A DNA stretch of 64,000 nt from Magnetococcales bacterium (GCA_015228925.1 JADGCQ010000005.1:3394-67393), one strand, 5' to 3'. Positions 2,378-61,548 are shown, counted from the first letter of the stretch. Notes: generated by a model from the letters alone, not told the origin. Made by a program: numbers and translations.

Positions 2378-4924
2378 TTGGAACTGCTCTACACCATTGC
2401 GGATATCATCAGAAATGACGATGGATTGACAATCCTGTGCATTGTCGTTGCGTTCCTCGCCGTATTTCTGACACTGGAAATCACAGCCCGCTTATCCAAT
2501 AACCATGATGCCAATCGGAAACGTAAAACACGTTATCTGGGCTCCTTGGTTTTGGGGCTGGGGTTATGGATCATCCACCAAGTTGCGCTCTCTCTACAAA
2601 TCCCCACCGGATCATACACCACCCATCTCCACCATTTTGAACACCCTATAGACATCGCTCTCCCCCTGGGAACATCCCTGATACTCGCGCTGTGCGTCGC
2701 GAATACCCTCCTCTCCTTCCCCAGGAAAACAAGCCATCTGCTCTGGGCCAGCTTTTGTCTGGGGCTGGGGTTGCCTGGCGTCGTCGCTGTCGGACTGTTC
2801 TCACATCACGCCAGCGGACTCTGGTTCTTCAATGTCATGGAAACGGCATTCGCTTTCGTCTGCACCACCGCCGCCATTTTCAGTGCTTTTTATCTGGTTT
2901 TAAAGCTTCCAGCCCACTATGCCCTCTCCACCTCCGCACGCTACCTGCTTGCGACCAATCTTCTAACCTTTAGCCTGTTCCTCGGCAATATCCTCTTCAT
3001 CAACGCCTTTTACACCCTCGCCCCGGCGATGCAAACCGAGGAGAATGCGGCTATCGGACATAGCATATTGAGCTTTATAGTCATTATAATTCTTTTTATC
3101 GTTGTTTTATCTCACTATTGGCATCTCGACCAAGAGCGCGTCTCTTTGGAGAAGAGCGTCCATGACCTGCAATTGTCGCAGGAAATCGCCCATATGGGCC
3201 ACTGGGAATGGGATCTGGTAACCGACGACATCACTTGGTCAAACCGATTGGCCGTCATCTTTTCAATGCCATCGGATAGAAATCGTGCCGATCTTTTTTC
3301 AAACACCATTCATCCCAATGATCGTGTGGATGTGATGCAATGCCGCAGGCAAGCACGTCTGGACCCCCTTGGCCAATGGTCCATCCGCTATCGCATCATC
3401 TGTCCCAACGGTGAAATACGGATGATTCGCGAACATGGACGCACCTTAACCAACCTACACGGCACACCAACCCGGCTGTTGGCGACTGTCGCCAATGTGA
3501 CCCATATTTATGATATGGAAAAACGGGAGGAACGGGTGATGCAGTCCCAGATTGCCCTGAGCGCGTTATTGGAAACGGGGCTGGAACCCTTGGACTTGGA
3601 AAAACAGCTTAATGTTGCACTCCATATCATTCTTACCGTCCCTTGGCTGTCGATCAAATATCAGGGATCCATCTTTCTCGTCGATCCCGATTCGGGCGAT
3701 TTGCGACTGGCCTCCCATATCGGCCTGTCGGAGCAGCAAGTGCGTTTGTGCAGCCACGTCAAGCGCGGCCATTGTCTTTGCGGAAAAGCACTAGCACAAC
3801 AAAAAATTGTCTTCACCTCACATCTCGATGAAAATCACCCGATCACCTATCCTGGCATAGTCCCTCATGGGCACTATTGTGTCCCCATCGTTTCCCGCAG
3901 CCGGGTCGTCGGAGTACTCAATCTCTATGTTCCCCACGGCTATGAAAAAAATTCCGAGGAGGACGCCTTTTTAACCACCATTTCCAACACCCTGGCGGGG
4001 TTAATCGATTTACGCCATACCCAGGCCCGGTTGGCCAACAAACAGGAATTCATTACCACCATTCTGCGCACCGCACCATCCCTGGTCCTCGTATTAGACC
4101 AAGATGGACGGGTTATCCTGTTCAACCATGCCTGTCAAACACTGACGGGATACACGGAAGAGGAGGTGGTAGGACGCGAAATTTGGAAGTTTTTGATTCC
4201 CCCTTCCGAAGTCGTCGAATTAAAGGAAAAACTTCAAGGTCTTTACCCGGGAGGGAGGCCGCTCGACCACGAAGGGCACTGGTTGACCATCCATGGGGAT
4301 GCCCCCCTGATTGCCTGGTCGAGTACCGCCATCGCCACCACCGAAAATACCCAACGCCATATCGTCGGCACTGGCGTGGATATTTCGCAAAAGCGGCGCG
4401 CAGAACAACAACTGCGCTTTTTGGCCAGTCATGATTCACTCACCGGGTTGCCCAACCGATCCCAATTTATGGAACATTTGATCGTCAGCCTAGCCCAAGC
4501 CAAAAGAAGTGGACGCCATCTGGCGGTGTTATTTTTGGATTTGGATCGTTTTAAAACGGTCAACGACACCCTCGGACACGAAATTGGTGATCGACTGCTC
4601 ACCGCAGCCGCCTCGCGCATCCGCAGCAGCGTCCGAGAAATGGATGTAGTCGCCCGCATTGGTGGTGATGAATTTACCGTCCTTATGACGGGGCTTGTGG
4701 ATATCGACCCCATCGCCACCATCGCCAAGAAAATTATCACCAACATTGATAAAATTTTTGAAATCGATCAACACCCCTGTCACATCGGTGTCAGCGTCGG
4801 CATCGGTCTGTTCCCCGAACATGGCGACGATCCCCAGACCCTGCTGAAAAAAGCGGACCAGGCTATGTATGCCGTCAAAGAGTCCGGTCGCAACAGCTTT
4901 AAAATTTGGGATGAAACGTGTTGA
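2378..4924 (+). CDS. Membrane sensor diguanylate cyclase: multi-TM N-terminus, PAS, GAF, PAS, GGDEF
   Basis: About 7 hydrophobic segments at the N-terminus. GAF-like CxC-containing middle region. Intact GGDEF (RIGGDEFTVLM) with RxxD I-site (REMD) five residues upstream. TTG start as given by the ORF track. Confidence 0.85.
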   Translation: MELLYTIADIIRNDDGLTILCIVVAFLAVFLTLEITARLSNNHDANRKRKTRYLGSLVLGLGLWIIHQVALSLQIPTGSYTTHLHHFEHPIDIALPLGTSLILALCVANTLLSFPRKTSHLLWASFCLGLGLPGVVAVGLFSHHASGLWFFNVMETAFAFVCTTAAIFSAFYLVLKLPAHYALSTSARYLLATNLLTFSLFLGNILFINAFYTLAPAMQTEENAAIGHSILSFIVIIILFIVVLSHYWHLDQERVSLEKSVHDLQLSQEIAHMGHWEWDLVTDDITWSNRLAVIFSMPSDRNRADLFSNTIHPNDRVDVMQCRRQARLDPLGQWSIRYRIICPNGEIRMIREHGRTLTNLHGTPTRLLATVANVTHIYDMEKREERVMQSQIALSALLETGLEPLDLEKQLNVALHIILTVPWLSIKYQGSIFLVDPDSGDLRLASHIGLSEQQVRLCSHVKRGHCLCGKALAQQKIVFTSHLDENHPITYPGIVPHGHYCVPIVSRSRVVGVLNLYVPHGYEKNSEEDAFLTTISNTLAGLIDLRHTQARLANKQEFITTILRTAPSLVLVLDQDGRVILFNHACQTLTGYTEEEVVGREIWKFLIPPSEVVELKEKLQGLYPGGRPLDHEGHWLTIHGDAPLIAWSSTAIATTENTQRHIVGTGVDISQKRRAEQQLRFLASHDSLTGLPNRSQFMEHLIVSLAQAKRSGRHLAVLFLDLDRFKTVNDTLGHEIGDRLLTAAASRIRSSVREMDVVARIGGDEFTVLMTGLVDIDPIATIAKKIITNIDKIFEIDQHPCHIGVSVGIGLFPEHGDDPQTLLKKADQAMYAVKESGRNSFKIWDETC

Positions 4925-4962
4925 TATGTGATTGAAGACATTTTCCCAATGAGGAGTAGAAT

Positions 4963-5163
4963 ATGGAACAACTGGATCGCATTACCCAGCAACCCGACGT
5001 GATGGGTGGCAAAGCGTGTATCCGTGGGATGCGCGTTACGGTCGGTATGGTTGTCGGCCAAATCGGTGCTGGCCATAGCATCGAGGAAATCCTTCTCGAC
5101 TATCCTTATATTGAGCGCGAAGACATTCTCCAGGCGTTACGTTACGCCGCATGGCGGACATAA
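4963..5163 (+). CDS. DUF433-family small protein (antitoxin-like HTH)
   Basis: 66 aa. PDVMGGKACIRGMRVTV ... ILLDYPYIEREDILQALRYA is the typical DUF433 pattern. Confidence 0.75.
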   Translation: MEQLDRITQQPDVMGGKACIRGMRVTVGMVVGQIGAGHSIEEILLDYPYIEREDILQALRYAAWRT

Positions 5164-5323
5164 CCGTTCATCCCCCCTTTCAGACTTTTGATTCAAATAT
5201 CAAAAAAAAAGATTCAAAAGCAAAAAATTGGAGCTTTTGATTTAAAGTCAAAACCCTGGGGAAAGAATTCCCCAGACCCCTTCTTTCTTTTCAATAGTTT
5301 TTTAGGGGAGGTCTGAACGGTTA
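5161..5323. repeat. MITE-like non-coding element, copy A (10-bp perfect terminal inverted repeats taaccgttca / tgaacggtta)
   Basis: The core agcttttgatttaaagtcaaaaccctgggg...ccccagacccct recurs at 53267-53330. The internal ctgggg/ccccag hairpin and the TIRs were read directly. Confidence 0.6.
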
Positions 5324-5345
5324 CGGAGAAACCTGCCACGATCCC

Positions 5346-6728
5346 TTAACCCTTGACCGATTCATTCTGAGTGATGAACGTATGATAGGGAAGATCCAGA
5401 ATATGGTGAAAGGTGATGATGATGGCTACCATGAAGGTGATCAGACAGGCGGCGAAATATCCAAAACCATAATAGGGAAAGCCAAGATTCATCGATAACA
5501 GCGAGAAGACAAAGTTGGATAGCAGGAAGATGAAACTAACCTGTAATGCCTTGCGGCGACAATCAAAATAGGACAAAAGAATATTCATGAACAAAATACA
5601 GACGTGGTAAAATGCCCCCAACACCCCCAGCCGATACATCCCCATCTGTTTAAAGTTGATGCCAAACCAGGTAAACAGATGCGGTGCCATCAAAATAGCC
5701 AACAGGCTGATCCCCCCCTGGAGAATCAAAAAATTACGCCCGCTCACATGCACCGCTTCGATCAGTTGTTTATGATTGTCCCGGATGACCTGAAAATTGG
5801 CGTGTTTTTGAATGTCTCGGTAAAATTTTAAATAATGTTCATAAAATCGAGTCTCCATGCTCAACACAAAGGAGGCCATGGAGGGGACGATGGAAAGATA
5901 GGCGAGAAACATGGCACTATCATAGTTGGAATAGGAGAGAAATCCCCCGGCCACCACATCTCTTTCTGGACAAAACCACATGATCCATTTGTCCACCCAA
6001 GCGGCCAAATTAAACGTCAAACCGACCAGGGCCAAATCCCAATACCGCCTGAAATAGGGGAGAAATCCGAAAAAGTTTTTGGCTTCATAGGGATATTCGG
6101 CAAAGACCCGGGCGATGATCCCAAACAGGATGATGGCCAACCCCGCATTGAAACCAAAAAACATCCCCACCACCCCCAGATCCTTGGCCAAAAAAGGGTT
6201 GGAAATGCCACCAAACGCCATGCCGATAAGAAAAATACGGATAACCATTTTATAATCTTTGAGTGCGGTGATAAAAATGGTCACCAACCAGACACCATTG
6301 ATCAAAAAATAATTGATGAAGGCACTGAGTGCCGTCATAAACTCAATATCGACATAGAAAAAATAAAATAAAAAAGCCAGCGGAAACTGTATCGCATAGA
6401 TCAAAATCAATCCCCCCAGGAGGGCACCGGGGGCTTTTTCCACCTCTTTCAGAAAAATCAAATCGGAGATATACCGGGTAAGCACCATCACAATGGGGCC
6501 GGATATCACCAAAGAAAATGAAAAATTATAAATGATAGCAATGCGAAAGGTAATCTGTTGCTCGACGGTGGTAAAATACGATCCCAGAGCCACAATCCCC
6601 GTGAGGGCCAGGATGGTGAACAACCAGGGGCCGGTCGCCACCAATGCCGAATAACCAAATCCGCTCAAAAGGCCAATCAGATTGTCCTTGGTCGTCAGAT
6701 TACGCAATACAAAACCGATACCGGCCAT
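5346..6728 (-). CDS. pelG: Pel polysaccharide biosynthesis membrane protein PelG
   Basis: 460 aa polytopic membrane protein starting MAGIGFVLRNL, typical of PelG. It is the last gene of the pel-ordered operon. Confidence 0.8.
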   Translation of the reverse strand: MAGIGFVLRNLTTKDNLIGLLSGFGYSALVATGPWLFTILALTGIVALGSYFTTVEQQITFRIAIIYNFSFSLVISGPIVMVLTRYISDLIFLKEVEKAPGALLGGLILIYAIQFPLAFLFYFFYVDIEFMTALSAFINYFLINGVWLVTIFITALKDYKMVIRIFLIGMAFGGISNPFLAKDLGVVGMFFGFNAGLAIILFGIIARVFAEYPYEAKNFFGFLPYFRRYWDLALVGLTFNLAAWVDKWIMWFCPERDVVAGGFLSYSNYDSAMFLAYLSIVPSMASFVLSMETRFYEHYLKFYRDIQKHANFQVIRDNHKQLIEAVHVSGRNFLILQGGISLLAILMAPHLFTWFGINFKQMGMYRLGVLGAFYHVCILFMNILLSYFDCRRKALQVSFIFLLSNFVFSLLSMNLGFPYYGFGYFAACLITFMVAIIITFHHILDLPYHTFITQNESVKG

Positions 6729-50900: not shown

Positions 50901-51035
50901 CTCCAAACAACTTTCTTGCACAAAGAAATGGCCGTATTGTCGGATCAGGTTCGCAATTTTGACTTCGCGGAGGCACTCGTCAGCTTGAACGCAATCGCGC
51001 AAGCGGTCAACCTTCCATTGGGTGGAGATCGTTAA
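47955..51035 (+). CDS. Hybrid sensor histidine kinase: periplasmic domain, HAMP, HisKA, HATPase_c, REC, HPt
   Basis: [33 protein letters not shown] segment ILVVDDNVIN...DAVLMDLQMPEMDG. HPt segment MVHAIRGSAGNLGA. Confidence 0.85.
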   Translation: MCAVVINPRSLKFYLFLLLLPLVTLPLVVVGWIAKEHVIKTQRLQALGEEKNLLQLVHSGYMNQIASAKSNLELLSNAQLVKDYMANDNEGSRYGILQLPLLNLFASYASAYPEYYEIRVLMPDGEEDARFARLSLANKTENEMKSPYFQKLIADKDNGGIVFFKNPDNEEWAFVVAKKIYLRRVGEDPSQPEIFRGYLAITMRPQWLQDEIETMHMGSGGHLMVADREGTIIFSPSWSILPPKLSADLLDTMTRPEFHNTGQHLLIQTDTFSKPAFIQSLPLNDSLHLIALLWDDDLQAQSRFLGWMVAGITTTSILFLILVIYSTLKKTIIDPVTHLAQALQQVGSGTMKCHVDLGRIEEFSSLANHFNTMVATLFQSQEDLKSSYEEISHQNEELIQLARMKDYFFANDKAKSEFLALMSHEIRTPMNAIIGLSHLTLKSELTDKQREWIGRIQLSAHNLMGIINDILDFSKIEAGKLTLESIPFSLPDVINGITNMMEEKIVEKALECQVSLQDSVPIRLRGDPLRLGQVFTNLLGNAIKFSNHGGLIVVTITLEEETAAKIKIQCSVQDTGIGITDEQVAKLFQPFSQADTSITRKHGGTGLGLTICKRIVSMMDGRIWVESQPHQGSIFYFTATFEKGLENTNDHPGHDSESHPTIEEDHAIVGAKILVVDDNVINQVVALETLKAAGLIGEVASNGTEAIHQVKSTFYDAVLMDLQMPEMDGMEATRQIRRDVRFQKLPIIAMTAHAMAEDRQQCLAAGMNDHIAKPFDPQQLFGVLRRWIVPREGLGIVIPTTQDHPAMDRPEQSVPPSLPGLDTASALNRLGNNERLYFSLLQDFRKQFNNYPQAIKAILDRDDQDQKKSARDMVHAIRGSAGNLGANALSAAAHRLEIVLSDSSEASWQSSWDHFEQSLTMVLRTITQLDDTHEDQEDDREVVPKTTIVDLEKAGPLITDLHQLLKRNNIKAEEQVDALETLLQTTFLHKEMAVLSDQVRNFDFAEALVSLNAIAQAVNLPLGGDR

Positions 51036-53023
51036 TGTTATCCATGGAAAAGGGTCGCATACTGATTGTTGATGATATTCGCATCAATGTAAAATTTTTG
51101 GTTCAATCTCTCAAACCTGATTATGAACTATTTGTCGCCGATAATGGCCTGCGTGCTTTGGAACTGGCCGCCTTGGAACGACCTGACTTGGTGCTGTTGG
51201 ACATCATGATGCCAGGGATGGATGGTTATGAGGTTTGTCGGCGTTTGCAAGCCGACGAAAAAACGCAAAATATCGGTATCCTATTCATGACCGCCAAAGA
51301 TGGCGACCATGACGAAGCGAAATGTTTTGAAGCCGGGGCGGTGGATGTGATCACCAAGCCCTATCACAACGCCGTGGTTCGGGCTAAGGTTAAAAATCAC
51401 ATCGAGTTGAAACGATACCGTGATTTTACTGTCCTGGAACAAAAAAAATATACGGAAAAATCCAAAAAATTTAAACAAGCGTCAGAGATTGCAACATCCT
51501 TGGAAGGGGTGGAATTTCCCGATATACCTGGGATAGCCTTCCGGGATGGTTTGCAACAATGGGGTGATCTTGAAGTCTATAAGATGGCCATCGCCGATTT
51601 TATCCATGACCATGCCGCTGATGGTACGGCCATTCGTTTGGCGATCCTTGCGGGTCATCGTGATAAAACTGTAGCGATGACTCATGCGTTAAAAGGGGGG
51701 GCGGGTACGATACGGGCTTTGGAACTGGCAAAGGCCGCTGCCACATTGGAACGTGCCCTCCTGAACAACGAAACCATCCCGGAATCGCTCCTTCAGGCAT
51801 TGGATACCTCCTTGCTGATGCTTGCGCATGGGGAAAAACTTCTCAGAGTCGAAAAAAATCAAACCCATCAACAACGTCAACTCCCCCCCCCGACGGAACA
51901 TCGTTCTGCACAATATAAATTACTTGTAGTCGATGATGAATCGGTCAATCTCAAACTACTCCGGGAAATATTGCATGACGAATACGAACTAATCTTTGCG
52001 AAAAGTGGCCAGGAGATGTTGCAACATGTTTTGGATGGTCCCGATCTCATTCTTTTGGACATCATGATGCCGGGCATGGATGGTTATGAATGTTGCATTC
52101 AGCTAAAGGCCAACCCGGAAACCCGTGACATTCCTGTGATTTTCATCAGCTCCATGACGGATGTAATGGAAGAGGTCAGAGGTTTTGCATCGGGGGCGAT
52201 CGATTATATTAGCAAACCTGTCAAGGCAGCCGTTGTTCGGGCACGCATTAAAACGCACCTGACGTTGAAAGAATCGCTGAAAACCATCGTGCATCAAAAC
52301 TTGGAGATTAAGAAAAAAAATGAAGAACTTCTGGAAGCCAACCGCATTCGGGAAGATATCGACCAGATTGTCCGCCACGATTTAAAAGGACCATTAAATT
52401 TTATCATTGGCGCACCAAGTTTGCTGATCGAAGATTTACATCCGGGATCCGATCAACTGAAACTGTTTCGTGAAATTGAGGCATCGGGTTTTCGTATGTT
52501 GGCCATGATCAATCGTTCCCATGATCTTTACAAGATGGAGCGCGGTTTATATAAACTGAACCCGATCCCCGTTGACATGATTGCAGTCATCAATCGGGTA
52601 ACCAACGAATTACAGAGTATTTTGGCGCAAAAAGGGCTGACCCTGACGATTTCCATAGATAACCGAAGGATCCAGGGTGACGAAACATTTTTTATATTGG
52701 GGGAAGAGCTTTTATGTCACGCCATGTTCTCCAATATCATCAAAAATGCCATGGAAGCCTCACCCGAGAAGGAATCGGTGGAAATTTTTCTACGCCGATC
52801 CGATCAAGCGCACATCGGTATTACCAATAAAGGGGAAATCCCACCGGAAATTCGGGAGACTTTCTTTCATAAATATGTCACAGCGGGCAAAAGTCATGGT
52901 ACGGGACTTGGAACCTACTCAGCCCAGTTGAGTGCCAAAACGATGGCTGGGGATATCCGGGTGGATTTCAGTCAAGAGGGAAAAACCACCATTGCGATTT
53001 GCCTACCTCTTAAAAAAGGATAA
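51035..53023 (+). CDS. REC, HPt-like, REC, histidine-kinase fusion protein
   Basis: Two receiver domains (DLVLLDIMMPGMDG and DLILLDIMMPGMDG). HPt-like MTHALKGGAGTIRA. C-terminal kinase core (IVRHDLKGPLN ... GTGLGTYSAQL). The start overlaps the upstream stop (TAATG). Confidence 0.8.
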   Translation: MLSMEKGRILIVDDIRINVKFLVQSLKPDYELFVADNGLRALELAALERPDLVLLDIMMPGMDGYEVCRRLQADEKTQNIGILFMTAKDGDHDEAKCFEAGAVDVITKPYHNAVVRAKVKNHIELKRYRDFTVLEQKKYTEKSKKFKQASEIATSLEGVEFPDIPGIAFRDGLQQWGDLEVYKMAIADFIHDHAADGTAIRLAILAGHRDKTVAMTHALKGGAGTIRALELAKAAATLERALLNNETIPESLLQALDTSLLMLAHGEKLLRVEKNQTHQQRQLPPPTEHRSAQYKLLVVDDESVNLKLLREILHDEYELIFAKSGQEMLQHVLDGPDLILLDIMMPGMDGYECCIQLKANPETRDIPVIFISSMTDVMEEVRGFASGAIDYISKPVKAAVVRARIKTHLTLKESLKTIVHQNLEIKKKNEELLEANRIREDIDQIVRHDLKGPLNFIIGAPSLLIEDLHPGSDQLKLFREIEASGFRMLAMINRSHDLYKMERGLYKLNPIPVDMIAVINRVTNELQSILAQKGLTLTISIDNRRIQGDETFFILGEELLCHAMFSNIIKNAMEASPEKESVEIFLRRSDQAHIGITNKGEIPPEIRETFFHKYVTAGKSHGTGLGTYSAQLSAKTMAGDIRVDFSQEGKTTIAICLPLKKG

Positions 53024-53512: not shown

Positions 53513-53845
53513 ATGGAAGAAAATATATTCGCAGTCCGATTACGTTCCGCACGGGAAAGAATGGGACTCACACAAAGTAGACTGGGTATTCTCATCGGTC
53601 TGACGACATCGGCAGCCTCTCCACGCATCAACAGATATGAGCGAGAATCAAGGCGGCCCAGCATCGCGACGGTTGCCCGTTTGTCCAAAGTGCTGGAAGT
53701 CTCACCATCCTATTTCTATGAACCCGACAACTTGATTGCCGAGGTGATTTTGCGTCTAAGTCATATGACCAGAAGCGAAATTGAGACCATTCTATCCAAG
53801 ATTCCCCTTTCCCACCCATTGGACCAGCACAACCACTCTCCATGA
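53513..53845 (+). CDS. XRE-family helix-turn-helix transcriptional regulator
   Basis: LRSARERMGLTQSRLGILIGLTTSAASPRINRYERESRRPSIATVARLSKVLEV is a classic Cro/C1 HTH pattern. Confidence 0.75.
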   Translation: MEENIFAVRLRSARERMGLTQSRLGILIGLTTSAASPRINRYERESRRPSIATVARLSKVLEVSPSYFYEPDNLIAEVILRLSHMTRSEIETILSKIPLSHPLDQHNHSP

Positions 53846-57289: not shown

Positions 57290-57856
57290 TCACGCCGCCA
57301 AGTTGGTGCTGGTGGATTGCACGTTGTTGGCTGTGAGAGGGGCTAGGTTGTGGCGTTCGATATCAAACAGGATGGTCGAAAAGAGAAACAGGTCAAAAGG
57401 TGGACGAGGACCGCCTGTTGGCAGGCTGGGGAGGCAATGGCGTTGGATATGACATTGGCGTAAGGCACGAAAAATGTGAAATTCATAGCCCCAACCATCT
57501 TCCTGGGACGGAGGATAGGAAAACCCGAAGTTTTCAAGGATTTCCAAGCGGGTTGCGTCGATGGAATTTGGATTTTTCTTAACGATAACACGGAGAAAGG
57601 CAATAAGGGTATTGATGGCACATTGGAACGCAAGAATTTCGTTGGAGAAAAAAGCATATTTTGACCATTCGTCTCCAGTTATCGATTGCACACGTTGGAA
57701 AACACCCTTGTGGAGAAAGGCCCCGGCGACGCAGGCTCCTAATTTGTGCCGATCCAGATATTTGGGATGCAGGGAATCGTCACCAGTGGCGGCGGCGATT
57801 TTTTGCATTTGGGTTTGCATGTGAGAGCGCAAATGCACAAAGGTGTTTGCCACCAT
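57290..57856 (-). CDS. Hypothetical protein (188 aa). The same frame continues upstream through one TAA to an ATG at 58000
   Basis: ORF from the track. Hand translation of 57857-58000 gives MTKTALVANVTDPKEWFHNYWD*SFSHEVQLVLARGSGEIALVDNARD in frame. Confidence 0.4.
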   Translation of the reverse strand: MVANTFVHLRSHMQTQMQKIAAATGDDSLHPKYLDRHKLGACVAGAFLHKGVFQRVQSITGDEWSKYAFFSNEILAFQCAINTLIAFLRVIVKKNPNSIDATRLEILENFGFSYPPSQEDGWGYEFHIFRALRQCHIQRHCLPSLPTGGPRPPFDLFLFSTILFDIERHNLAPLTANNVQSTSTNLAA

Positions 57857-58233
57857 GTCCCGTGCATTATCAACAAGGGCAATCTCGCCGGAACCCCTGG
57901 CAAGAACGAGCTGAACCTCATGGGAAAAACTTTAATCCCAATAGTTATGGAACCACTCTTTAGGATCGGTCACATTGGCGACTAATGCCGTCTTGGTCAT
58001 GCGATGACACCTTTGCGTTGCTATGGTGGGGATCCGATAAAAGCGCGGGAGGCTAAACCAAAACAACCCTGCTGTCAACCATCAGAGTACGAACGTAAGC
58101 GAGGCTGCGACGGAAATCTCGATAAGAGGAAAAACGCCAGAGCCGCAACGGAGCGGCTCCTGGGTTCGTGCGATGAACGGCTAGCAAGAGAACAACGGGA
58201 CCAACGATCTGCTACCGATCAAACGTGCAGTGA

Positions 58234-58455
58234 TCAGGCGGGGGGACGGATTTTGGCTCGCGCTGGAGGAACCTCATACATGTCCACCTCCGTATTATCG
58301 AAGGGGAGTACCTTTTCATAAAATTCCTTTTCCGTGACTTTCTCATCCCACATCGGTGAAGAGGCTACCTTATGCGACCACTCTGGATTAGACCTGGGAT
58401 TAGACTTGGCACTAGGAAGTGCCACGGGGTTGGATTCTGAGTGATTGTGATTCAT
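58234..58455 (-). CDS. Small hypothetical protein (73 aa; His/Ser/Pro-rich N-terminus, acidic C-terminus)
   Basis: A strong SD (gggaggagg) lies immediately upstream of the ATG. No domain was recognised. Confidence 0.5.
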   Translation of the reverse strand: MNHNHSESNPVALPSAKSNPRSNPEWSHKVASSPMWDEKVTEKEFYEKVLPFDNTEVDMYEVPPARAKIRPPA

Positions 58456-58970
58456 AACCTCCTCCCTTTGTGATGTGAACCTTATTGCCCCACGTCCCGT
58501 GATACGTCGGCAAAATGTTCCTTATTGTCTCACCCTTGACGCCGCCGTCACAGACCGTTGCGTGACGCATGGCACCACCTGACTGTTGCATCAATATATT
58601 GATCTAACTAACAAAAAACACAAACCCCTGAATGATACCGCCTTTAGAACTCAACGATAAAGGTACCATATGTGCCTCATTGTGCAAGGATCAAACCAGC
58701 GTCCCAAAAATTGGCCAAAGCTTTTCCGAACGTGCCGTGGCATCTGTGAGTGAGACCACAACAAACTCACCCAACATCCATGCTACTCTCATTGAACCGC
58801 AAAATCGATGGGTAAGTGTGTGTTTGTTCATTTCGATAAAATATATGAAAATTATCTTTTAAAATAGCCTATTAGTAGTGTATATAGAATAATTTATGAA
58901 CATTGGTGCCTAAATTGAGGTACTCTGACTGGCTTAAGGTTTGATAGTATTTCTAACTGGAGAGGTTCAT

Positions 58971-59885
58971 ATGATTGGCAATTCTCAAGGCTCGGTTTCC
59001 TACAGACTGAGGTTGTTCCTTGCGGTTGACCTTCAAAACTCAACGGCATTGAAATTCCGGTTCTTCTGCGAAGGGATGTCCTATTGGCGATCATTTCTCG
59101 CAGGCTTCTATCGAGAGTTTGCGACCGTTTTTCTCGAATCTTTGGATGGTATCGGAAAAAAGCCTGGGGTGGGTTCATTGGTCCCGGTTCAGATATGGAA
59201 AAGCAGTGGTGATGAGGTGGTCATGGTGGTTGATCTCAGGCATCGAAGACATCTGAAATATTATCTCAAGGCGTTTCGCGATGGTGTACGGCGTTATAAC
59301 GCGACACTGGCTGAAAAAGACCCAGAGATTTTTCGAGTGGGTGGTGAGACATTGCGGATGCGGTTGAAACCCAGGGCATGGTTGGCCGATTTTCCCATCA
59401 ACAATATGGAATTCTCCACACCGCATGGTACGTTGGAACGCAGTGATGACAATAAAATGCCGTGGAGTTTGGAAATTCCCGATTATTTTGGACCTGCAAT
59501 GGATGTGGGATTTCGTCTGGGATCCCTGGCCACGAGCCGCAAGTTTGTATTGTCGGTGGAGACGGTGTGGGCCTTGGTGGGAGAAGAGGATGAGACAATC
59601 AAAGATTTTCGTCTTTTCATGGAAGGGCGTGTCCCCTTGAAGGGGGTCCGTGGTGGTGAATCCTACCCGGTTTTTTGGCTTGATCTGGAAAAAGAGATAC
59701 CGGATGAAGATGCCTGGACGGGGTTGCGTCCTTTTGCGTCGAATACGGATTATGAAAAAATAGAGAAATTGTGTCGCGGTTTTATTGGGATGGACAAAAA
59801 TCCATTGCTCAGGCCAATATTTATCGATGATGAAAAATTGCCTCCTGCATTTTCTGATACCATGTATCGTATACAGGAGGTGTAG
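58971..59885 (+). CDS. Stand-alone divergent class III nucleotidyl-cyclase-homology (palm) domain protein with an unknown C-terminal region of about 100 aa
   Basis: ATG 58971 follows a ggagagg SD. LRLFLAVDLQNSTALKF resembles vLFaDIvGFTal. IWKSSGDEVVMVV resembles KtiGDavMavF. DYFGPAMDVGFRLGSLA resembles dyfGdtVNlAaRleS.A. Confidence 0.55.
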   Translation: MIGNSQGSVSYRLRLFLAVDLQNSTALKFRFFCEGMSYWRSFLAGFYREFATVFLESLDGIGKKPGVGSLVPVQIWKSSGDEVVMVVDLRHRRHLKYYLKAFRDGVRRYNATLAEKDPEIFRVGGETLRMRLKPRAWLADFPINNMEFSTPHGTLERSDDNKMPWSLEIPDYFGPAMDVGFRLGSLATSRKFVLSVETVWALVGEEDETIKDFRLFMEGRVPLKGVRGGESYPVFWLDLEKEIPDEDAWTGLRPFASNTDYEKIEKLCRGFIGMDKNPLLRPIFIDDEKLPPAFSDTMYRIQEV

Positions 59886-59904: not shown

Positions 59905-60447
59905 TTAGGAAATGGTACTGACTTCGGGCAGACGACTTCCAAGCCGACAGGGTGTACAAACAACGATGCATTCGCTGTCAAACAAAGCCATTTTTCCGCG
60001 CAAGACATCCCGGAACCGTGTTCTTAACGTCGCAAAATGTTGCCGTTTGAACCAGTCTGGAACATCCAACACGATCACGATGCAGATCGGACAAATGGGT
60101 GTGTGGAATTCCTCCGGCAGATCGGCACGGAATTTTGTTCCTTTATCGGTTGGGAGCCAACAGGCCGAAAACATGAGCAGAGAGTCCCATACCTTGGGGG
60201 CCGTTTTATCAACCAGATACTCTACGAACTGCTCAGCAGTGACGTTTTTCTCTTTGGCCTGTTCCCTCTCATCCGAATAAGCTTTGGCCTCCAGCATGAA
60301 TAACTTGCCGTCACGCAACCAACAAAAATCCATCTCTTTGACATGCTGACCTGAAATTTTCTTATAGGCAGCCAAATTCTGAAAACGGAAATGGGGTATG
60401 CCGGTCAAATCGACCCGAACGTTCGATTCCTCATAAATGGCCACCAC
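59905..60447 (-). CDS. Putative PD-(D/E)xK-fold nuclease (180 aa)
   Basis: E6/E7 ... D40 ... E53-A-K55 (KEMDFCWLRDGKLFMLEAKAY) has the spacing typical of restriction-endonuclease-like cores. Its start abuts the ATPase stop. Confidence 0.45.
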   Translation of the reverse strand: MVAIYEESNVRVDLTGIPHFRFQNLAAYKKISGQHVKEMDFCWLRDGKLFMLEAKAYSDEREQAKEKNVTAEQFVEYLVDKTAPKVWDSLLMFSACWLPTDKGTKFRADLPEEFHTPICPICIVIVLDVPDWFKRQHFATLRTRFRDVLRGKMALFDSECIVVCTPCRLGSRLPEVSTIS

Positions 60448-61548
60448 CTATTCTCCCCAATCCAGCCGGATGTCTTCGTTGAGCAGATATTCCGATTGAG
60501 TAAGTATGGGGTTGTCAGGCATCTCATTGCGTAAATCGTGGAAGGTGGCAGTAACCCCCGTTGGAGATTTCCGCAGGTCCACCAAAGACGTTTTTGTTTG
60601 TGTACGGCGAGCCAGTTGTTCAATGCGTTTAAGAAAAAAATAACTGTGGGTGGCGGCGTAGACCTGAATGCCCGCTTGGCTCAGGGCAAAAAGAATGTCC
60701 GCCAACGCAATGATCGCTTGCGGATGCAGATTGACCTCCGGTTCGTCAACCAGGAGGACGCTCCCCTGGGTCAAGCTACGGTTTAAAATCAAACGACTCA
60801 GGATACCAATTTTCTTAAATCCCTCCGATGTCAGTGACATGGAGTAGGTTTTGCCTTCTCTTTGATAGACAAATTTGGATCCGACTTCGGCTATCTCTCC
60901 GTTATGTAATGTTTTTTTAATTGTAGTGAGAATATTCTCCAGTTTTGGTTCAATTTTCCCGTAGGTGGGGGCGGCACGAAAATCATCGATCAAATCCAGG
61001 TAGGTGTCATCAAAACCCGCAATTTCCATCCTTCTTCGGGTTGCCTCAATGGCGTGCATGGCGGTAAGAATTTCTTTGGGTGGAAAAAAAACAACCGGTC
61101 CGATCGGATTAACCGCAAATGAGATCTCATTAAAAGTTTCTGGTATAACCGATACGGAAAAGGAGAATTCACCGCCTCCCACACATGCCTTCATTTTCAA
61201 GGATTCTTGGCCACCACGGATCAAGTGTGCATGATTGAAATCTTTCGGTTGCATCGTCCATGACAACTTGTTGCGGAAACAATCCACCCATGCTTCTGGT
61301 TGTGGTCCGTCTCTTTTCTGAACGAACAGGTTAATACTACGCCCTACGGAATAGAGCATTTTCAGCAGATGCGTTTTGCCCGTATCATTTTCGCCGATGA
61401 TGACGTTCATGGCGGAATGGTCCAGCCAGTCCAGTTGGGCAAACGATGTAAAATTGGTCAGTTCCAAGCTGGAAAACACGCATCCGCTCCCTCGATTGCC
61501 ACCCCTGTCCGACGGGTTGCACGGCGTCGGAAGGGGTGGGTCGATCAT
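60448..61548 (-). CDS. ABC/SMC-like AAA ATPase (AAA_15/AAA_21 type)
   Basis: Walker A GENDTGKT. Signature-like LTSEG. Walker B VLLVDEPEVNLHP. H-loop ATHS. An alternative GTG start at 61479 has a gagggag SD. Confidence 0.75.
   Translation of the reverse strand: MIDPPLPTPCNPSDRGGNRGSGCVFSSLELTNFTSFAQLDWLDHSAMNVIIGENDTGKTHLLKMLYSVGRSINLFVQKRDGPQPEAWVDCFRNKLSWTMQPKDFNHAHLIRGGQESLKMKACVGGGEFSFSVSVIPETFNEISFAVNPIGPVVFFPPKEILTAMHAIEATRRRMEIAGFDDTYLDLIDDFRAAPTYGKIEPKLENILTTIKKTLHNGEIAEVGSKFVYQREGKTYSMSLTSEGFKKIGILSRLILNRSLTQGSVLLVDEPEVNLHPQAIIALADILFALSQAGIQVYAATHSYFFLKRIEQLARRTQTKTSLVDLRKSPTGVTATFHDLRNEMPDNPILTQSEYLLNEDIRLDWGE

What the first reader, a model, noticed from the sequence alone, without database searches (positions are those of the whole stretch)
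58971..59885. Orphan, highly divergent class III cyclase-homology protein with no sensor or effector partner
The 304-aa protein carries the three landmark segments of the class III cyclase palm domain in the correct order:
- first metal-binding Asp strand: LFLAVDLQNSTALKF
- second metal-binding Asp: KSSGDEVVMVV
- the G-x-x-V-N-x-A-x-R-like helix: FGPAMDVGFRLGSLA, with D replacing the usual N

It has no TM, PAS, GAF, HAMP or receiver domain. About 100 residues at the C-terminus have no recognisable fold. Pycsar pyrimidine cyclases are similar minimal cyclases, but they are always followed by an effector with a cNMP-binding domain, and none is adjacent here. The neighbouring ATPase/nuclease pair might act as the effector, or the protein might not be a cyclase at all.
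Basis: partly seen in the sequence, partly recalled or inferred. Interest (0 to 1): 0.75.

Follow-up and report, generated by a model that had tools for sequence, protein, structure and literature searches.

The report
Protease-less variant of phage cyclase family
This gene encodes a very divergent enzyme of the adenylate/guanylate-cyclase type that looks catalytically intact; it belongs to a large, unstudied family that temperate phages normally carry next to a zinc protease, and here it sits beside two unknown small genes, which points to a cyclic-nucleotide signalling module that has not been described.

Summary
The ORF at 58971-59885 is real and conserved (dN/dS 0.16). No Pfam, NCBIfam, PADLOC or PDB-sequence profile detects the protein, but its AlphaFold model matches only class III adenylate/guanylate cyclase domains (Foldseek E about 3e-6).

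The predicted catalytic residues (Asp20, Lys77, Asp81, Asp171, Arg182) are nearly invariant across 93 relatives. Asp178 always replaces the canonical Asn.

The protein is not a lone oddity. About 2,100 clusters at 50% identity belong to its family (PHROG 18024/6174, unnamed). The ancestral form is a two-gene cassette in prophages, with an ImmA/IrrE-type M78 zinc peptidase immediately upstream. Examples are C. difficile phage phiCD27 gp38-gp37 and Leptospira phage LE1 gp81-gp80. At least six of these loci also abut a PycTM 3TM Pycsar-type effector.

The Magnetococcales clade holding this gene lost the peptidase and the disordered C-terminal tail. It instead always has a divergently transcribed 73-aa gene plus a ~240-aa gene; the latter carries an in-frame TAA in this window.

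The adjacent ATPase/nuclease pair is HEC-02, an independent, experimentally validated defence system.

Most likely function: a homodimeric cyclase that uses ATP and makes a cyclic-nucleotide signal. The product, trigger and receptor are untested.

The parts
58971..59885 (+). Divergent class III cyclase-homology protein, 304 aa: cyclase fold at residues ~12-238 plus a helical C-terminal extension at 239-304
   Evidence: ORF; AF2 model pLDDT 75, pTM 0.82; Foldseek hits only class III cyclases; PHROG 18024 E 2e-23; dN/dS 0.16
59013..59057 (+). Strand beta1 and phosphate loop LFLAVDLQNSTALKF: predicted first metal Asp20, with Ser24, Thr25 and Lys28
   Evidence: D20 93/93, T25 and K28 invariant or nearly so; aligns to FADIVGFT of Rv1625c
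59199..59231 (+). Beta2-beta3 hairpin KSSGDEVVMVV: Lys77 (base-specifying position), predicted second metal Asp81, invariant Glu82
   Evidence: Invariant G80-D81-E82; K77 in 92/93; aligns to KVSGDSYMVV of Rv1625c
59481..59531 (+). DYFGPAMDVGFRLGSLA: Asp171 (second base-specifying position), Asp178 in place of the transition-state Asn, Arg182
   Evidence: D178 and R182 93/93; D171 is D or E; aligns to YDVWGDAVNVASRM in two independent hhalign runs
59637..59675 (+). LKGVRGGESYPVF: last two strands of the cyclase domain
   Evidence: K224, G225, Y232 and P233 conserved; aligns to NVKGKG...WYLI
58234..58455 (-). Conserved 73-aa gene, divergent from the cyclase gene, with a strong RBS (GGGAGGAGG); fold and function unknown
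   Evidence: Orthologues in L001, L002, L008 and L089, weak in L009; dN/dS 0.39; found in none of about 85 other loci
57290..58000 (-). Conserved ~240-aa all-alpha protein gene, downstream of the 73-aa gene. In this window it is interrupted by an in-frame TAA at 57932-57934 (codon 23); the remaining ORF 57290-57856 encodes 188 aa
   Evidence: tblastn colinear through the stop; sequence; orthologues L001, L009, L088, L089; dN/dS 0.20; AF2 pLDDT 40, uninformative
58139..58160 (-). Terminator-like hairpin between the 73-aa gene and the ~240-aa gene
   Evidence: Pattern scan only
58456..58970 (.). Divergent intergenic region holding a palindrome ATCAATATATTGAT at about 58589-58602; promoters not identified
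   Evidence: no Rfam match
59905..61548 (-). Neighbour, NOT part of the module: HEC-02B (NERD-like nuclease, 59905-60447) and HEC-02A (ABC ATPase, 60448-61548)
   Evidence: PADLOC E 4.5e-40 and 1.5e-89; validated two-gene defence system; absent next to orthologues

Best explanation
The gene encodes a nucleotidyl cyclase of the class III (adenylate/guanylate cyclase) fold that appears catalytically competent.

Inferred mechanism, by analogy with solved class III cyclases:
- It acts as a head-to-tail homodimer.
- Asp20 and Asp81 (with the invariant Glu82) bind two divalent metals.
- Ser24, Thr25 and Lys28 hold the phosphates.
- Lys77 and Asp171 read the base. The Lys/Asp pair is the adenine-type pair, so ATP is the likely substrate.
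- Arg182 stabilises the transition state.
- Asp178, invariant in this family, sits where the ribose-orienting Asn normally is.
- The product is therefore most likely cAMP or a close variant.

Shown here:
- The protein belongs to a large unnamed family (PHROG 18024/6174).
- The ancestral form of that family is a mobile two-gene cassette of temperate phages and prophages: an ImmA/IrrE-type M78 zinc peptidase gene, then the cyclase gene, usually overlapping.
- That cassette is sometimes joined by a PycTM 3TM membrane effector, which gives it a Pycsar-like signalling layout.
- The Magnetococcales clade containing this gene lost the peptidase and the long disordered C-terminal tail.
- That clade instead keeps a divergently transcribed 73-aa plus ~240-aa gene pair.

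Inferred from that: the gene pair acts as the regulator or receptor of the cyclase.

The adjacent HEC-02 pair is a separate defence system that shares a small island with this module.
For: Fold:
- AF2 model has pLDDT 75 and pTM 0.82, with beta-alpha-alpha-beta-beta-alpha-beta topology.
- Foldseek against PDB: 74 hits at E<=1e-3, and all top 50 are class III AC/GC domains with prob 1.00 and target TM up to 0.73.
- Against viral structures, cyclase-domain proteins come first and GGDEF proteins are weaker.

Residues:
- D20, K77, G80-D81-E82, D171 (D/E), D178 and R182 are invariant or nearly so in 133 representatives and 93 homologues, from Firmicutes phages to Proteobacteria.
- A colinear hhalign to PDB-verified cyclase domains pairs them with the catalytic D/K/D/D/N/R of Rv1625c.
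- The Lys/Asp pair is the adenine-recognition pair.

Selection: dN/dS is 0.16.

Family and context:
- 2,099 clusters at 50% identity.
- M78 gene directly upstream in 48/88 loci at first count, with flanks otherwise unconserved.
- 5/5 IMG/VR prophages carry the pair, located near the integrase or tail-fibre genes.
- phiCD27 gp38-gp37 and LE1 gp81-gp80 are the same pair.
- 47/48 partner peptidases keep HExGH.
- PycTM (PF18967) proteins abut the cassette in 5 loci, plus phiCD27 gp36.
- In an NJ tree the M78-less clades are nested within M78-linked diversity.
- C-terminal tails are a median of 121 residues in M78-linked members and 70 in this clade.
- The triad is found in all six loci of this clade and nowhere else.
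Against: - No sequence profile links the family to class III cyclases. PF00211 hits 0 of 133 members at E<=0.1. A profile search of PDB sequences finds nothing. The hhalign E-values of 0.1-0.28 are not significant.
- Residue superposition was inferred from alignment and secondary-structure order, not measured in 3D.
- The universal Asn-to-Asp change and the GDE motif may mean different chemistry.
- No activity, product, trigger or receptor has been tested.
- The partner proteins have no recognisable fold.
- In this window the ~240-aa partner carries a premature stop, and in L008 the module is decayed. The module may therefore be dispensable or decaying here.
- PycTM is present in only about 10% of cassettes and in none of the Magnetococcales loci.
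- The tree is a simple NJ tree without support values.
Confidence: 0.6

Rival explanations
1. It has the palm/cyclase fold but is not a 3',5'-cNMP cyclase. The invariant Asp178 (for Asn) and the GDE motif would adapt the site to other nucleotidyl-transfer chemistry, for example a 2',3'-cyclic or linear oligonucleotide signal as in GGDEF, mCpol or Cas10, or NTP depletion as a toxin that the M78 peptidase counteracts.
For: The Asn-to-Asp change and Glu82 are invariant in all 93-133 sequences. GGDEF proteins appear among weaker structural matches. The family escapes PF00211 and the PADLOC PycC models completely. The two-gene overlapping layout resembles toxin-antitoxin cassettes, and COG2856 peptidases are classic TA-associated genes.
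Against: Cyclase domains beat GGDEF by 3-4 orders of magnitude in Foldseek E-value. The D-x6-D-x3-R and K-x-x-G-D spacings are those of class III cyclases, not GGDEF. The PycTM effector association fits cNMP signalling.
Confidence: 0.2
2. It is a Pycsar cyclase (PycC) whose effector lies elsewhere in the genome or has been lost.
For: It is a minimal standalone cyclase domain beside a defence system. Some relatives abut PycTM effectors.
Against: No PADLOC PycC model hits the target or any of 133 relatives. No PycTM-like or CNBD gene lies in the 64-kb window or in orthologous loci. The family's defining partner is an M78 peptidase, which does not appear in the published survey of Pycsar-related cyclase clades. 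The Lys/Asp pair predicts a purine substrate, not a pyrimidine.
Confidence: 0.08
3. It is the signalling third component of the adjacent HEC-02 ATPase/nuclease system.
For: The stop codons are 20 bp apart, and both lie in a ~4-kb island between housekeeping genes.
Against: The orientation is convergent, so they are not one operon. HEC-02 needs only its two genes for defence. None of the orthologous loci (L001, L002, L009, L089) has HEC-02 next to the cyclase.
Confidence: 0.04
4. It is a domesticated or decaying remnant of a phage cassette with no current function in this genome.
For: The partner ~240-aa gene has an in-frame TAA. L008 has a frameshifted cyclase and a fragmented partner. The M78 partner is gone.
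Against: The cyclase ORF is intact, all catalytic residues are kept, and dN/dS is 0.16. The partner genes give 0.20 and 0.39. The stop could also be a MAG assembly error or could be bypassed by the internal ATG at 57856.
Confidence: 0.08

Closest known systems
Class III nucleotidyl cyclases (Pfam PF00211 Guanylate_cyc; e.g. Rv1625c, CyaC, mammalian AC C1/C2, GC-A)
   Same: Same fold and secondary-structure order. Acidic pair on beta1 and on the beta2-beta3 hairpin, K-x-x-G-D and D-x-x-G-x-x-x-[N/D]-x-x-x-R spacings, and a terminal KG...Y strand pair. Lys/Asp at the base-specifying positions, as in adenylate cyclases.
   Different: Not detected by PF00211 or by PDB sequence profiles. Asn is universally replaced by Asp. 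Invariant Glu follows the second Asp, and Trp39 and Trp76 are invariant. A conserved ~65-residue helical C-terminal extension is present. There are no sensor domains. The context is phage-borne with an M78 peptidase.
Pycsar/Pucsar antiphage cyclases (PycC, PucC) with PycTM 3TM or CNBD-TIR effectors
   Same: A minimal standalone cyclase on mobile or defence loci. About 10% of the family's cassettes abut a PF18967 PycTM protein, which is the main Pycsar effector class.
   Different: No PycC HMM match. The defining partner is an M78 peptidase, which is not described for any Pycsar-related subclade. The target locus has neither PycTM nor CNBD. A purine-type specificity pair is predicted.
ImmA/IrrE/CapP M78 metallopeptidase regulators (ImmR-ImmA, DdrO-IrrE, CapH-CapP)
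   Same: The family's usual partner is a PF06114 peptidase with an intact HExGH motif. CapP-type peptidases are known to regulate cyclic-nucleotide defence operons.
   Different: No HTH substrate gene is conserved in the cassette. The peptidase is co-oriented with and overlaps the cyclase, rather than lying divergently upstream with an HTH gene. The target clade has lost it altogether.
HEC-02 (ABC ATPase + NERD nuclease) defence system
   Same: Immediate neighbour in the window.
   Different: Independent, validated two-gene system. The adjacency is not conserved.

Membership tests
Class III nucleotidyl cyclase (cyclase homology domain) | Palm-type beta-alpha-alpha-beta-beta-alpha-beta catalytic fold | tested here: met
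   AF2 model. Foldseek top 50 PDB hits are all class III cyclases, E 3e-6 to 1e-4, prob 1.00.
Class III nucleotidyl cyclase (cyclase homology domain) | Two metal-binding Asp, one on beta1 and one on the beta2-beta3 hairpin | tested here: met
   D20 and D81 are invariant. They lie on model strands 14-21 and at the 79/82 turn and align to the FADI and SGD Asp of Rv1625c. The 3D distance was not measured.
Class III nucleotidyl cyclase (cyclase homology domain) | Base-specifying pair (Lys/Asp for ATP, Glu/Cys-type for GTP) | tested here: met
   K77 in 92/93 and D171 as D/E in 93/93, at the K-x-x-G-D and D-x6-[N/D] positions. The adenine-type pair is as cited.
Class III nucleotidyl cyclase (cyclase homology domain) | Transition-state Asn-x-x-x-Arg pair | tested here: not met
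   Arg182 is present, but the Asn position is Asp178 in 93/93 sequences.
Class III nucleotidyl cyclase (cyclase homology domain) | Match to the PF00211 profile | tested here: not met
   No hit for the target at E<=1 or for any of 133 relatives at E<=0.1.
Class III nucleotidyl cyclase (cyclase homology domain) | NTP to 3',5'-cNMP + PPi activity as a dimer | not testable with these tools
   Needs biochemistry or multimer-plus-ligand modelling.
Pycsar | Cyclase matches PycC models | tested here: not met
   PADLOC gives 0 families for the target and no PycC hit in 133 relatives.
Pycsar | Adjacent PycTM (3TM) or CNBD-TIR effector | tested here: not met
   None in the window or in Magnetococcales loci. 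Present beside 6 distant relatives only.
Unnamed M78-peptidase + cyclase cassette family (PHROG 18024/6174) | Cyclase-like protein matches the family profile | tested here: met
   phrog_18024 E 2e-23. Family HMM E 1e-73.
Unnamed M78-peptidase + cyclase cassette family (PHROG 18024/6174) | M78 (PF06114) gene immediately upstream on the same strand | tested here: not met
   No M78 gene or remnant in 56.5-62 kb of the window or in orthologous loci, even at E<=10 with filters off.
HEC-02 | Conserved co-occurrence or same operon with HEC-02A/B | tested here: not met
   Convergent orientation. No HEC-02 in L001, L002, L009 or L089. The system is defined as two genes.

The most novel reading that the evidence does not exclude
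The family defines a cyclic-nucleotide system of temperate phages that has not been described. In it, an ImmA/IrrE-type zinc peptidase gates a divergent class III cyclase, perhaps by acting on the cyclase's disordered C-terminal tail. The cyclase signal then drives a PycTM-type or still unknown effector. The Magnetococcales triad (cyclase, 73-aa protein, ~240-aa all-alpha protein) would be a second variant of that system, in which two proteins of unknown fold replace the protease as regulator or receptor.
Probability: 0.35. Interest if true: 0.8.

Novelty: new variant of a known kind. Interest (0 to 1): 0.66.

Why it matters
- It would add a large, sequence-invisible branch (about 2,100 clusters at 50% identity, no Pfam model) to the class III cyclases, with a family-wide Asn-to-Asp change in the active site.
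- It would link ImmA/IrrE-type proteases directly to cyclic-nucleotide production in well-known temperate phages (C. difficile phiCD27 and phiC2, Leptospira LE1), whose 'lysogenic conversion' genes are unexplained.
- It would give a testable case of partner replacement: a protease swapped for two unknown proteins in a signalling module.
- It would extend the Pycsar/Pucsar picture of antiviral cNMP signalling to a purine-type cyclase with a proteolytic control layer.

Tried and rejected
Searches that found nothing for the target:
- Pfam, NCBIfam and PADLOC.
- phmmer and profile hmmsearch against PDB sequences.

Profile comparison with known cyclases:
- hhalign of the family profile against Rv1625c alone gave E 0.28.
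- Against a low-diversity mycobacterial profile it failed.
- Against a 10-sequence profile of PDB-verified cyclase domains it gave E 0.1. This alignment is colinear and places the catalytic residues as expected, but it is not statistically significant.
- The homologue search spent on Rv1625c returned only relatives of at least 69% identity, so it added little.
- A viral scan for diverse cyclases gave 3 close relatives.

The ~240-aa partner:
- Only 3 homologues were found.
- The AF2 model has pLDDT 40 and is unusable.
- No Pfam or PDB hit.

Other negative searches:
- M78 remnant upstream of the target: none.
- Rfam in 57-60.5 kb: none.
- tRNA or island boundaries: none.
- Promoter scan: no excess over shuffles.
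- Literature searches for an M78 plus cyclase pairing: nothing.

Rejected interpretations:
- HEC-02 as effector.
- Pycsar membership.
- A pseudoenzyme, because the catalytic columns are invariant.

Full report
**1. The observation**

The ORF is present as described. The mechanical ORF runs 58941-59885 from a TTG. The ATG at 58971 has a GGAGAGG Shine-Dalgarno sequence and gives the 304-aa protein. That protein is identical to MBF0131417.1 of a Magnetococcales MAG. The three quoted segments are at residues 15-29, 77-87 and 173-187.

Pfam, NCBIfam, PADLOC and PDB sequence searches find nothing for it, either as a single sequence or as a family profile. It is a real gene under constraint: against an 82%-identical orthologue (L089) dN/dS is 0.16.

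**2. Fold**

An AlphaFold2 model built on a 10-sequence alignment has pLDDT 75 and pTM 0.82. Its element order is beta1, two helices, a beta2-beta3 hairpin, a long helix, beta4, a poorly ordered arm, a short helix, and then a beta-alpha-beta-beta unit ending at residue 238. Two further helices follow.

Foldseek against the PDB gives 74 hits at E<=1e-3. Every one of the top 50 is a class III adenylate or guanylate cyclase catalytic domain: GC-A, CyaC, mammalian AC C2, sGC, Rv1900c, Ma1120 and photoactivated cyclases. E-values run from 3e-6 to 1e-4, probability is 1.00, about 230-245 columns are aligned, and the target-normalised TM-score reaches 0.73. Against viral structures, cyclase-domain proteins come first and GGDEF proteins are 3-4 orders of magnitude weaker.

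The unassigned C-terminus is therefore about 65 residues, not about 100. It is conserved across the family (Cys268 and the Pro278/Pro282 region).

**3. Catalytic residues**

I recalled the Rv1625c, AC2-C2, AC5-C1 and GC-A sequences and verified or corrected them against PDB chains. The family profile aligns colinearly to a profile of these domains (residues 12-235 against 5-177). The pairings, in Rv1625c numbering recalled from memory, are:
- D20 with the FADI Asp (D256)
- K77 with K296
- D81 with D300
- D171 with D365
- D178 with N372
- R182 with R376
- K224-G225 with the terminal KG

The D171/D178/R182 pairing was also found against the single sequence. The scores (E 0.1-0.28) are not significant, so these alignments show consistency rather than proof. 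The statistical weight rests on the fold match.

Across 133 representatives and 93 genomic or phage homologues, D20, K77, G80-D81-E82, D171 (D or E), G174, D178 and R182 are invariant or nearly so. That argues for an active enzyme. Asp at the canonical Asn position is a family-wide trait, not a quirk of this protein. Lys/Asp at the two base positions is the adenine-type pair.

**4. The family**

An exhaustive HMMER search finds 2,099 clusters at 50% identity with E<=1e-3, and 878 with E<=1e-30. None of 133 members hits any Pfam family or a PADLOC cyclase model. All hit PHROG 18024 (target 2e-23), and most hit PHROG 6174. Both PHROGs have 'unknown function'.

*Link to an M78 peptidase.* In 88 loci from genomes and metagenomes, 48 have an ImmA/IrrE-type M78 peptidase gene (PF06114, about 165-200 aa) immediately upstream on the same strand. 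It usually overlaps the cyclase start, and nothing else in the flanks is conserved. All five IMG/VR prophage contigs carry the pair, near the integrase or the tail-fibre genes.

In GenBank phages the pair is:
- phiCD27 gp38 ('metallo-protease') and gp37, also present in phiC2, CDKM9, phiCDHM19 and phiCD508
- Leptospira phage LE1 gp81 and gp80, next to the CI repressor

These are shown. Of the partner peptidases, 47 of 48 keep HExGH.

*Link to PycTM.* I scanned 117 nearest neighbours of 52 cassettes against PADLOC. They include many defence genes (DruE, RmrA, CapP, type IIG RM). Five are PycTM hits.

These five are 160-204-aa proteins for which my hydropathy scan suggested two or three membrane segments. 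They match Pfam PF18967, 'Pycsar effector protein'. They lie directly upstream in the same operon (L018, L031), divergent (L049), or convergent immediately downstream (L052, L069). An HMM built from them also hits phiCD27 gp36, which is convergent right after gp37.

PycTM is described as a standalone 3TM family and as the commonest Pycsar effector. A recent survey of Pycsar-related cyclases does not mention an M78-linked clade. My literature searches found no description of the pairing.

**5. The clade of the target**

An NJ tree places M78-linked members all over the tree. Two M78-less groups are nested within them: a Caulobacterales clade that sits in a fixed chromosomal position near spoT and pdxJ, and the Magnetococcales clade of window, L001, L002 and L009. 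No M78 gene or remnant exists near the target or its orthologues. A different Magnetococcales MAG (L074) does carry the M78-linked form.

Loss of the peptidase goes with loss of the tail. The number of residues after Tyr232 is 70 in Magnetococcales and 89 in Caulobacterales. In M78-linked members the median is 121 (range 83-258), and the extra sequence is acidic and low-complexity. I infer, without a test, that the tail is the element the peptidase acts on.

The Magnetococcales genes have their own conserved neighbours, transcribed divergently:
- a 73-aa gene (58234-58455, strong RBS)
- behind it, a ~240-aa gene predicted to be all-alpha (57290-58000)

Both are found with the cyclase in window, L001, L089, L002 plus L088 (the same sample, at contig ends), L008 (decayed) and L009 (the 73-aa match there is weak). 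They are found in none of about 85 other loci. Their dN/dS values are 0.39 and 0.20. Neither has any Pfam or PDB relative, and the AF2 model of the larger one is unusable.

In this window the ~240-aa gene has an in-frame TAA at codon 23, where the orthologues have Glu or Lys. GenBank annotates a 172-aa product. This could be a recent nonsense mutation, a MAG error, or a shortened product.

**6.

The genes at 59905-60447 and 60448-61548 match HEC-02B (4.5e-40) and HEC-02A (1.5e-89). HEC-02 is an ABC ATPase plus NERD nuclease system. It was shown experimentally to defend against phage, with both genes required and no third gene involved.

The pair is convergent with the cyclase gene and is absent beside every orthologue. 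It is therefore a co-resident of a small island (about 57.3-61.5 kb) between the cytochrome bc1 and TrmL-like genes and the DsbA-like and SRPBCC genes. It is not the effector.

**7. Mechanism and confidence**

*Shown:*
- cyclase fold
- conservation of a full catalytic set, apart from Asn replaced by Asp
- purifying selection
- family size
- linkage to M78 and to PycTM in relatives
- the clade-specific triad

*Inferred:*
- homodimeric two-metal catalysis
- ATP as substrate
- a cyclic-nucleotide product
- peptidase control through the tail in the ancestral cassette
- the 73-aa and ~240-aa proteins as replacement regulator or receptor

My estimates:
- about 0.9 that this is a class III-fold enzyme
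- about 0.7 that it is an active nucleotidyl transferase
- about 0.35-0.4 that the product is cAMP
- about 0.4 that the family's role is phage or MGE conflict

**8. Verdict**

The 'orphan, no partner' reading and the HEC-02 suggestion are not supported.

The protein is a protease-less variant of a large, undescribed, phage-borne branch of class III cyclases: a new variant of a known kind. Interest is moderately high. It opens a testable link between ImmA/IrrE proteases, cyclic-nucleotide synthesis and PycTM effectors, and it offers a clean example of partner replacement.

Noticed in passing
window 59905-61548 (-): A complete HEC-02 defence system (NERD-like nuclease HEC-02B plus ABC ATPase HEC-02A), with PADLOC E 4.5e-40 and 1.5e-89. 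Pfam sees only AAA_21/AAA_15 in the ATPase and nothing in the nuclease.
   Followed up: partly
window 57932-57934 (- strand codon 23 of the gene at 57290-58000): An in-frame TAA interrupts the conserved ~240-aa partner gene; orthologues have Glu or Lys there. It could be a real nonsense mutation, a MAG error, or use of the internal ATG at 57856.
   Followed up: partly
L095 (phiCD27 NC_011398.1) 3324-5989; L096 (phage LE1 NC_048892.1) 84-1799: Well-known temperate phages carry the same M78-peptidase plus cyclase-like pair, annotated only as 'metallo-protease' or 'hypothetical'. phiCD27 gp37 is 528 aa with about 290 extra C-terminal residues, and gp36 is PycTM-like. In phiCDHM19 the homologue is labelled 'putative Nudix hydrolase'.
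   Followed up: partly
L008 6034-6918: The orthologue in another Magnetococcales MAG is split into two frames (81 + 196 aa), and its ~240-aa partner survives only as fragments. This suggests the module decays in some genomes, or that the assembly has errors.
   Followed up: no
L002 4787-7504 (-): About 3 kb from a 65%-identical orthologue lies a 905-aa protein with a receiver domain and weak or faint hits to MBL-fold families, anti-Pycsar Apyc1 and cNMP_binding. It is a possible cyclic-nucleotide hydrolase or receptor. It is not conserved in the other loci.
   Followed up: no
L016, L024, L026 and about 30 other Caulobacterales loci: A vertically inherited, M78-less clade of the family sits at a fixed chromosomal site near spoT/relA and pdxJ in Phenylobacterium and related Caulobacterales. 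This suggests domestication for host signalling.
   Followed up: partly
window 58585-58608: A palindrome centred on ATCAATATATTGAT lies in the divergent intergenic region between the 73-aa gene and the cyclase gene. It is a possible operator but is not conserved in L089 or L001.
   Followed up: no
window 58139-58160 (-): A GC-rich hairpin followed by a T-run lies between the 73-aa gene and the ~240-aa gene. It is a possible attenuator or terminator separating the two.
   Followed up: no
window 53513-53845 (+) and 51035-53023 (+): A small XRE-type HTH_3 protein lies next to the cytochrome bc1 operon. Nearby is a 662-aa protein with two receiver-like regions and a histidine-kinase-like C-terminus. 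Neither is linked to the finding.
   Followed up: no
L048, L041, L030, L040 and other M78-cassette flanks: The neighbours of the M78-cyclase cassettes are rich in known defence genes (DruE, RmrA, CapP-like, NsnB, mad2/mad3, type IIG restriction-modification). This is consistent with defence-island or prophage-accessory locations.
   Followed up: partly
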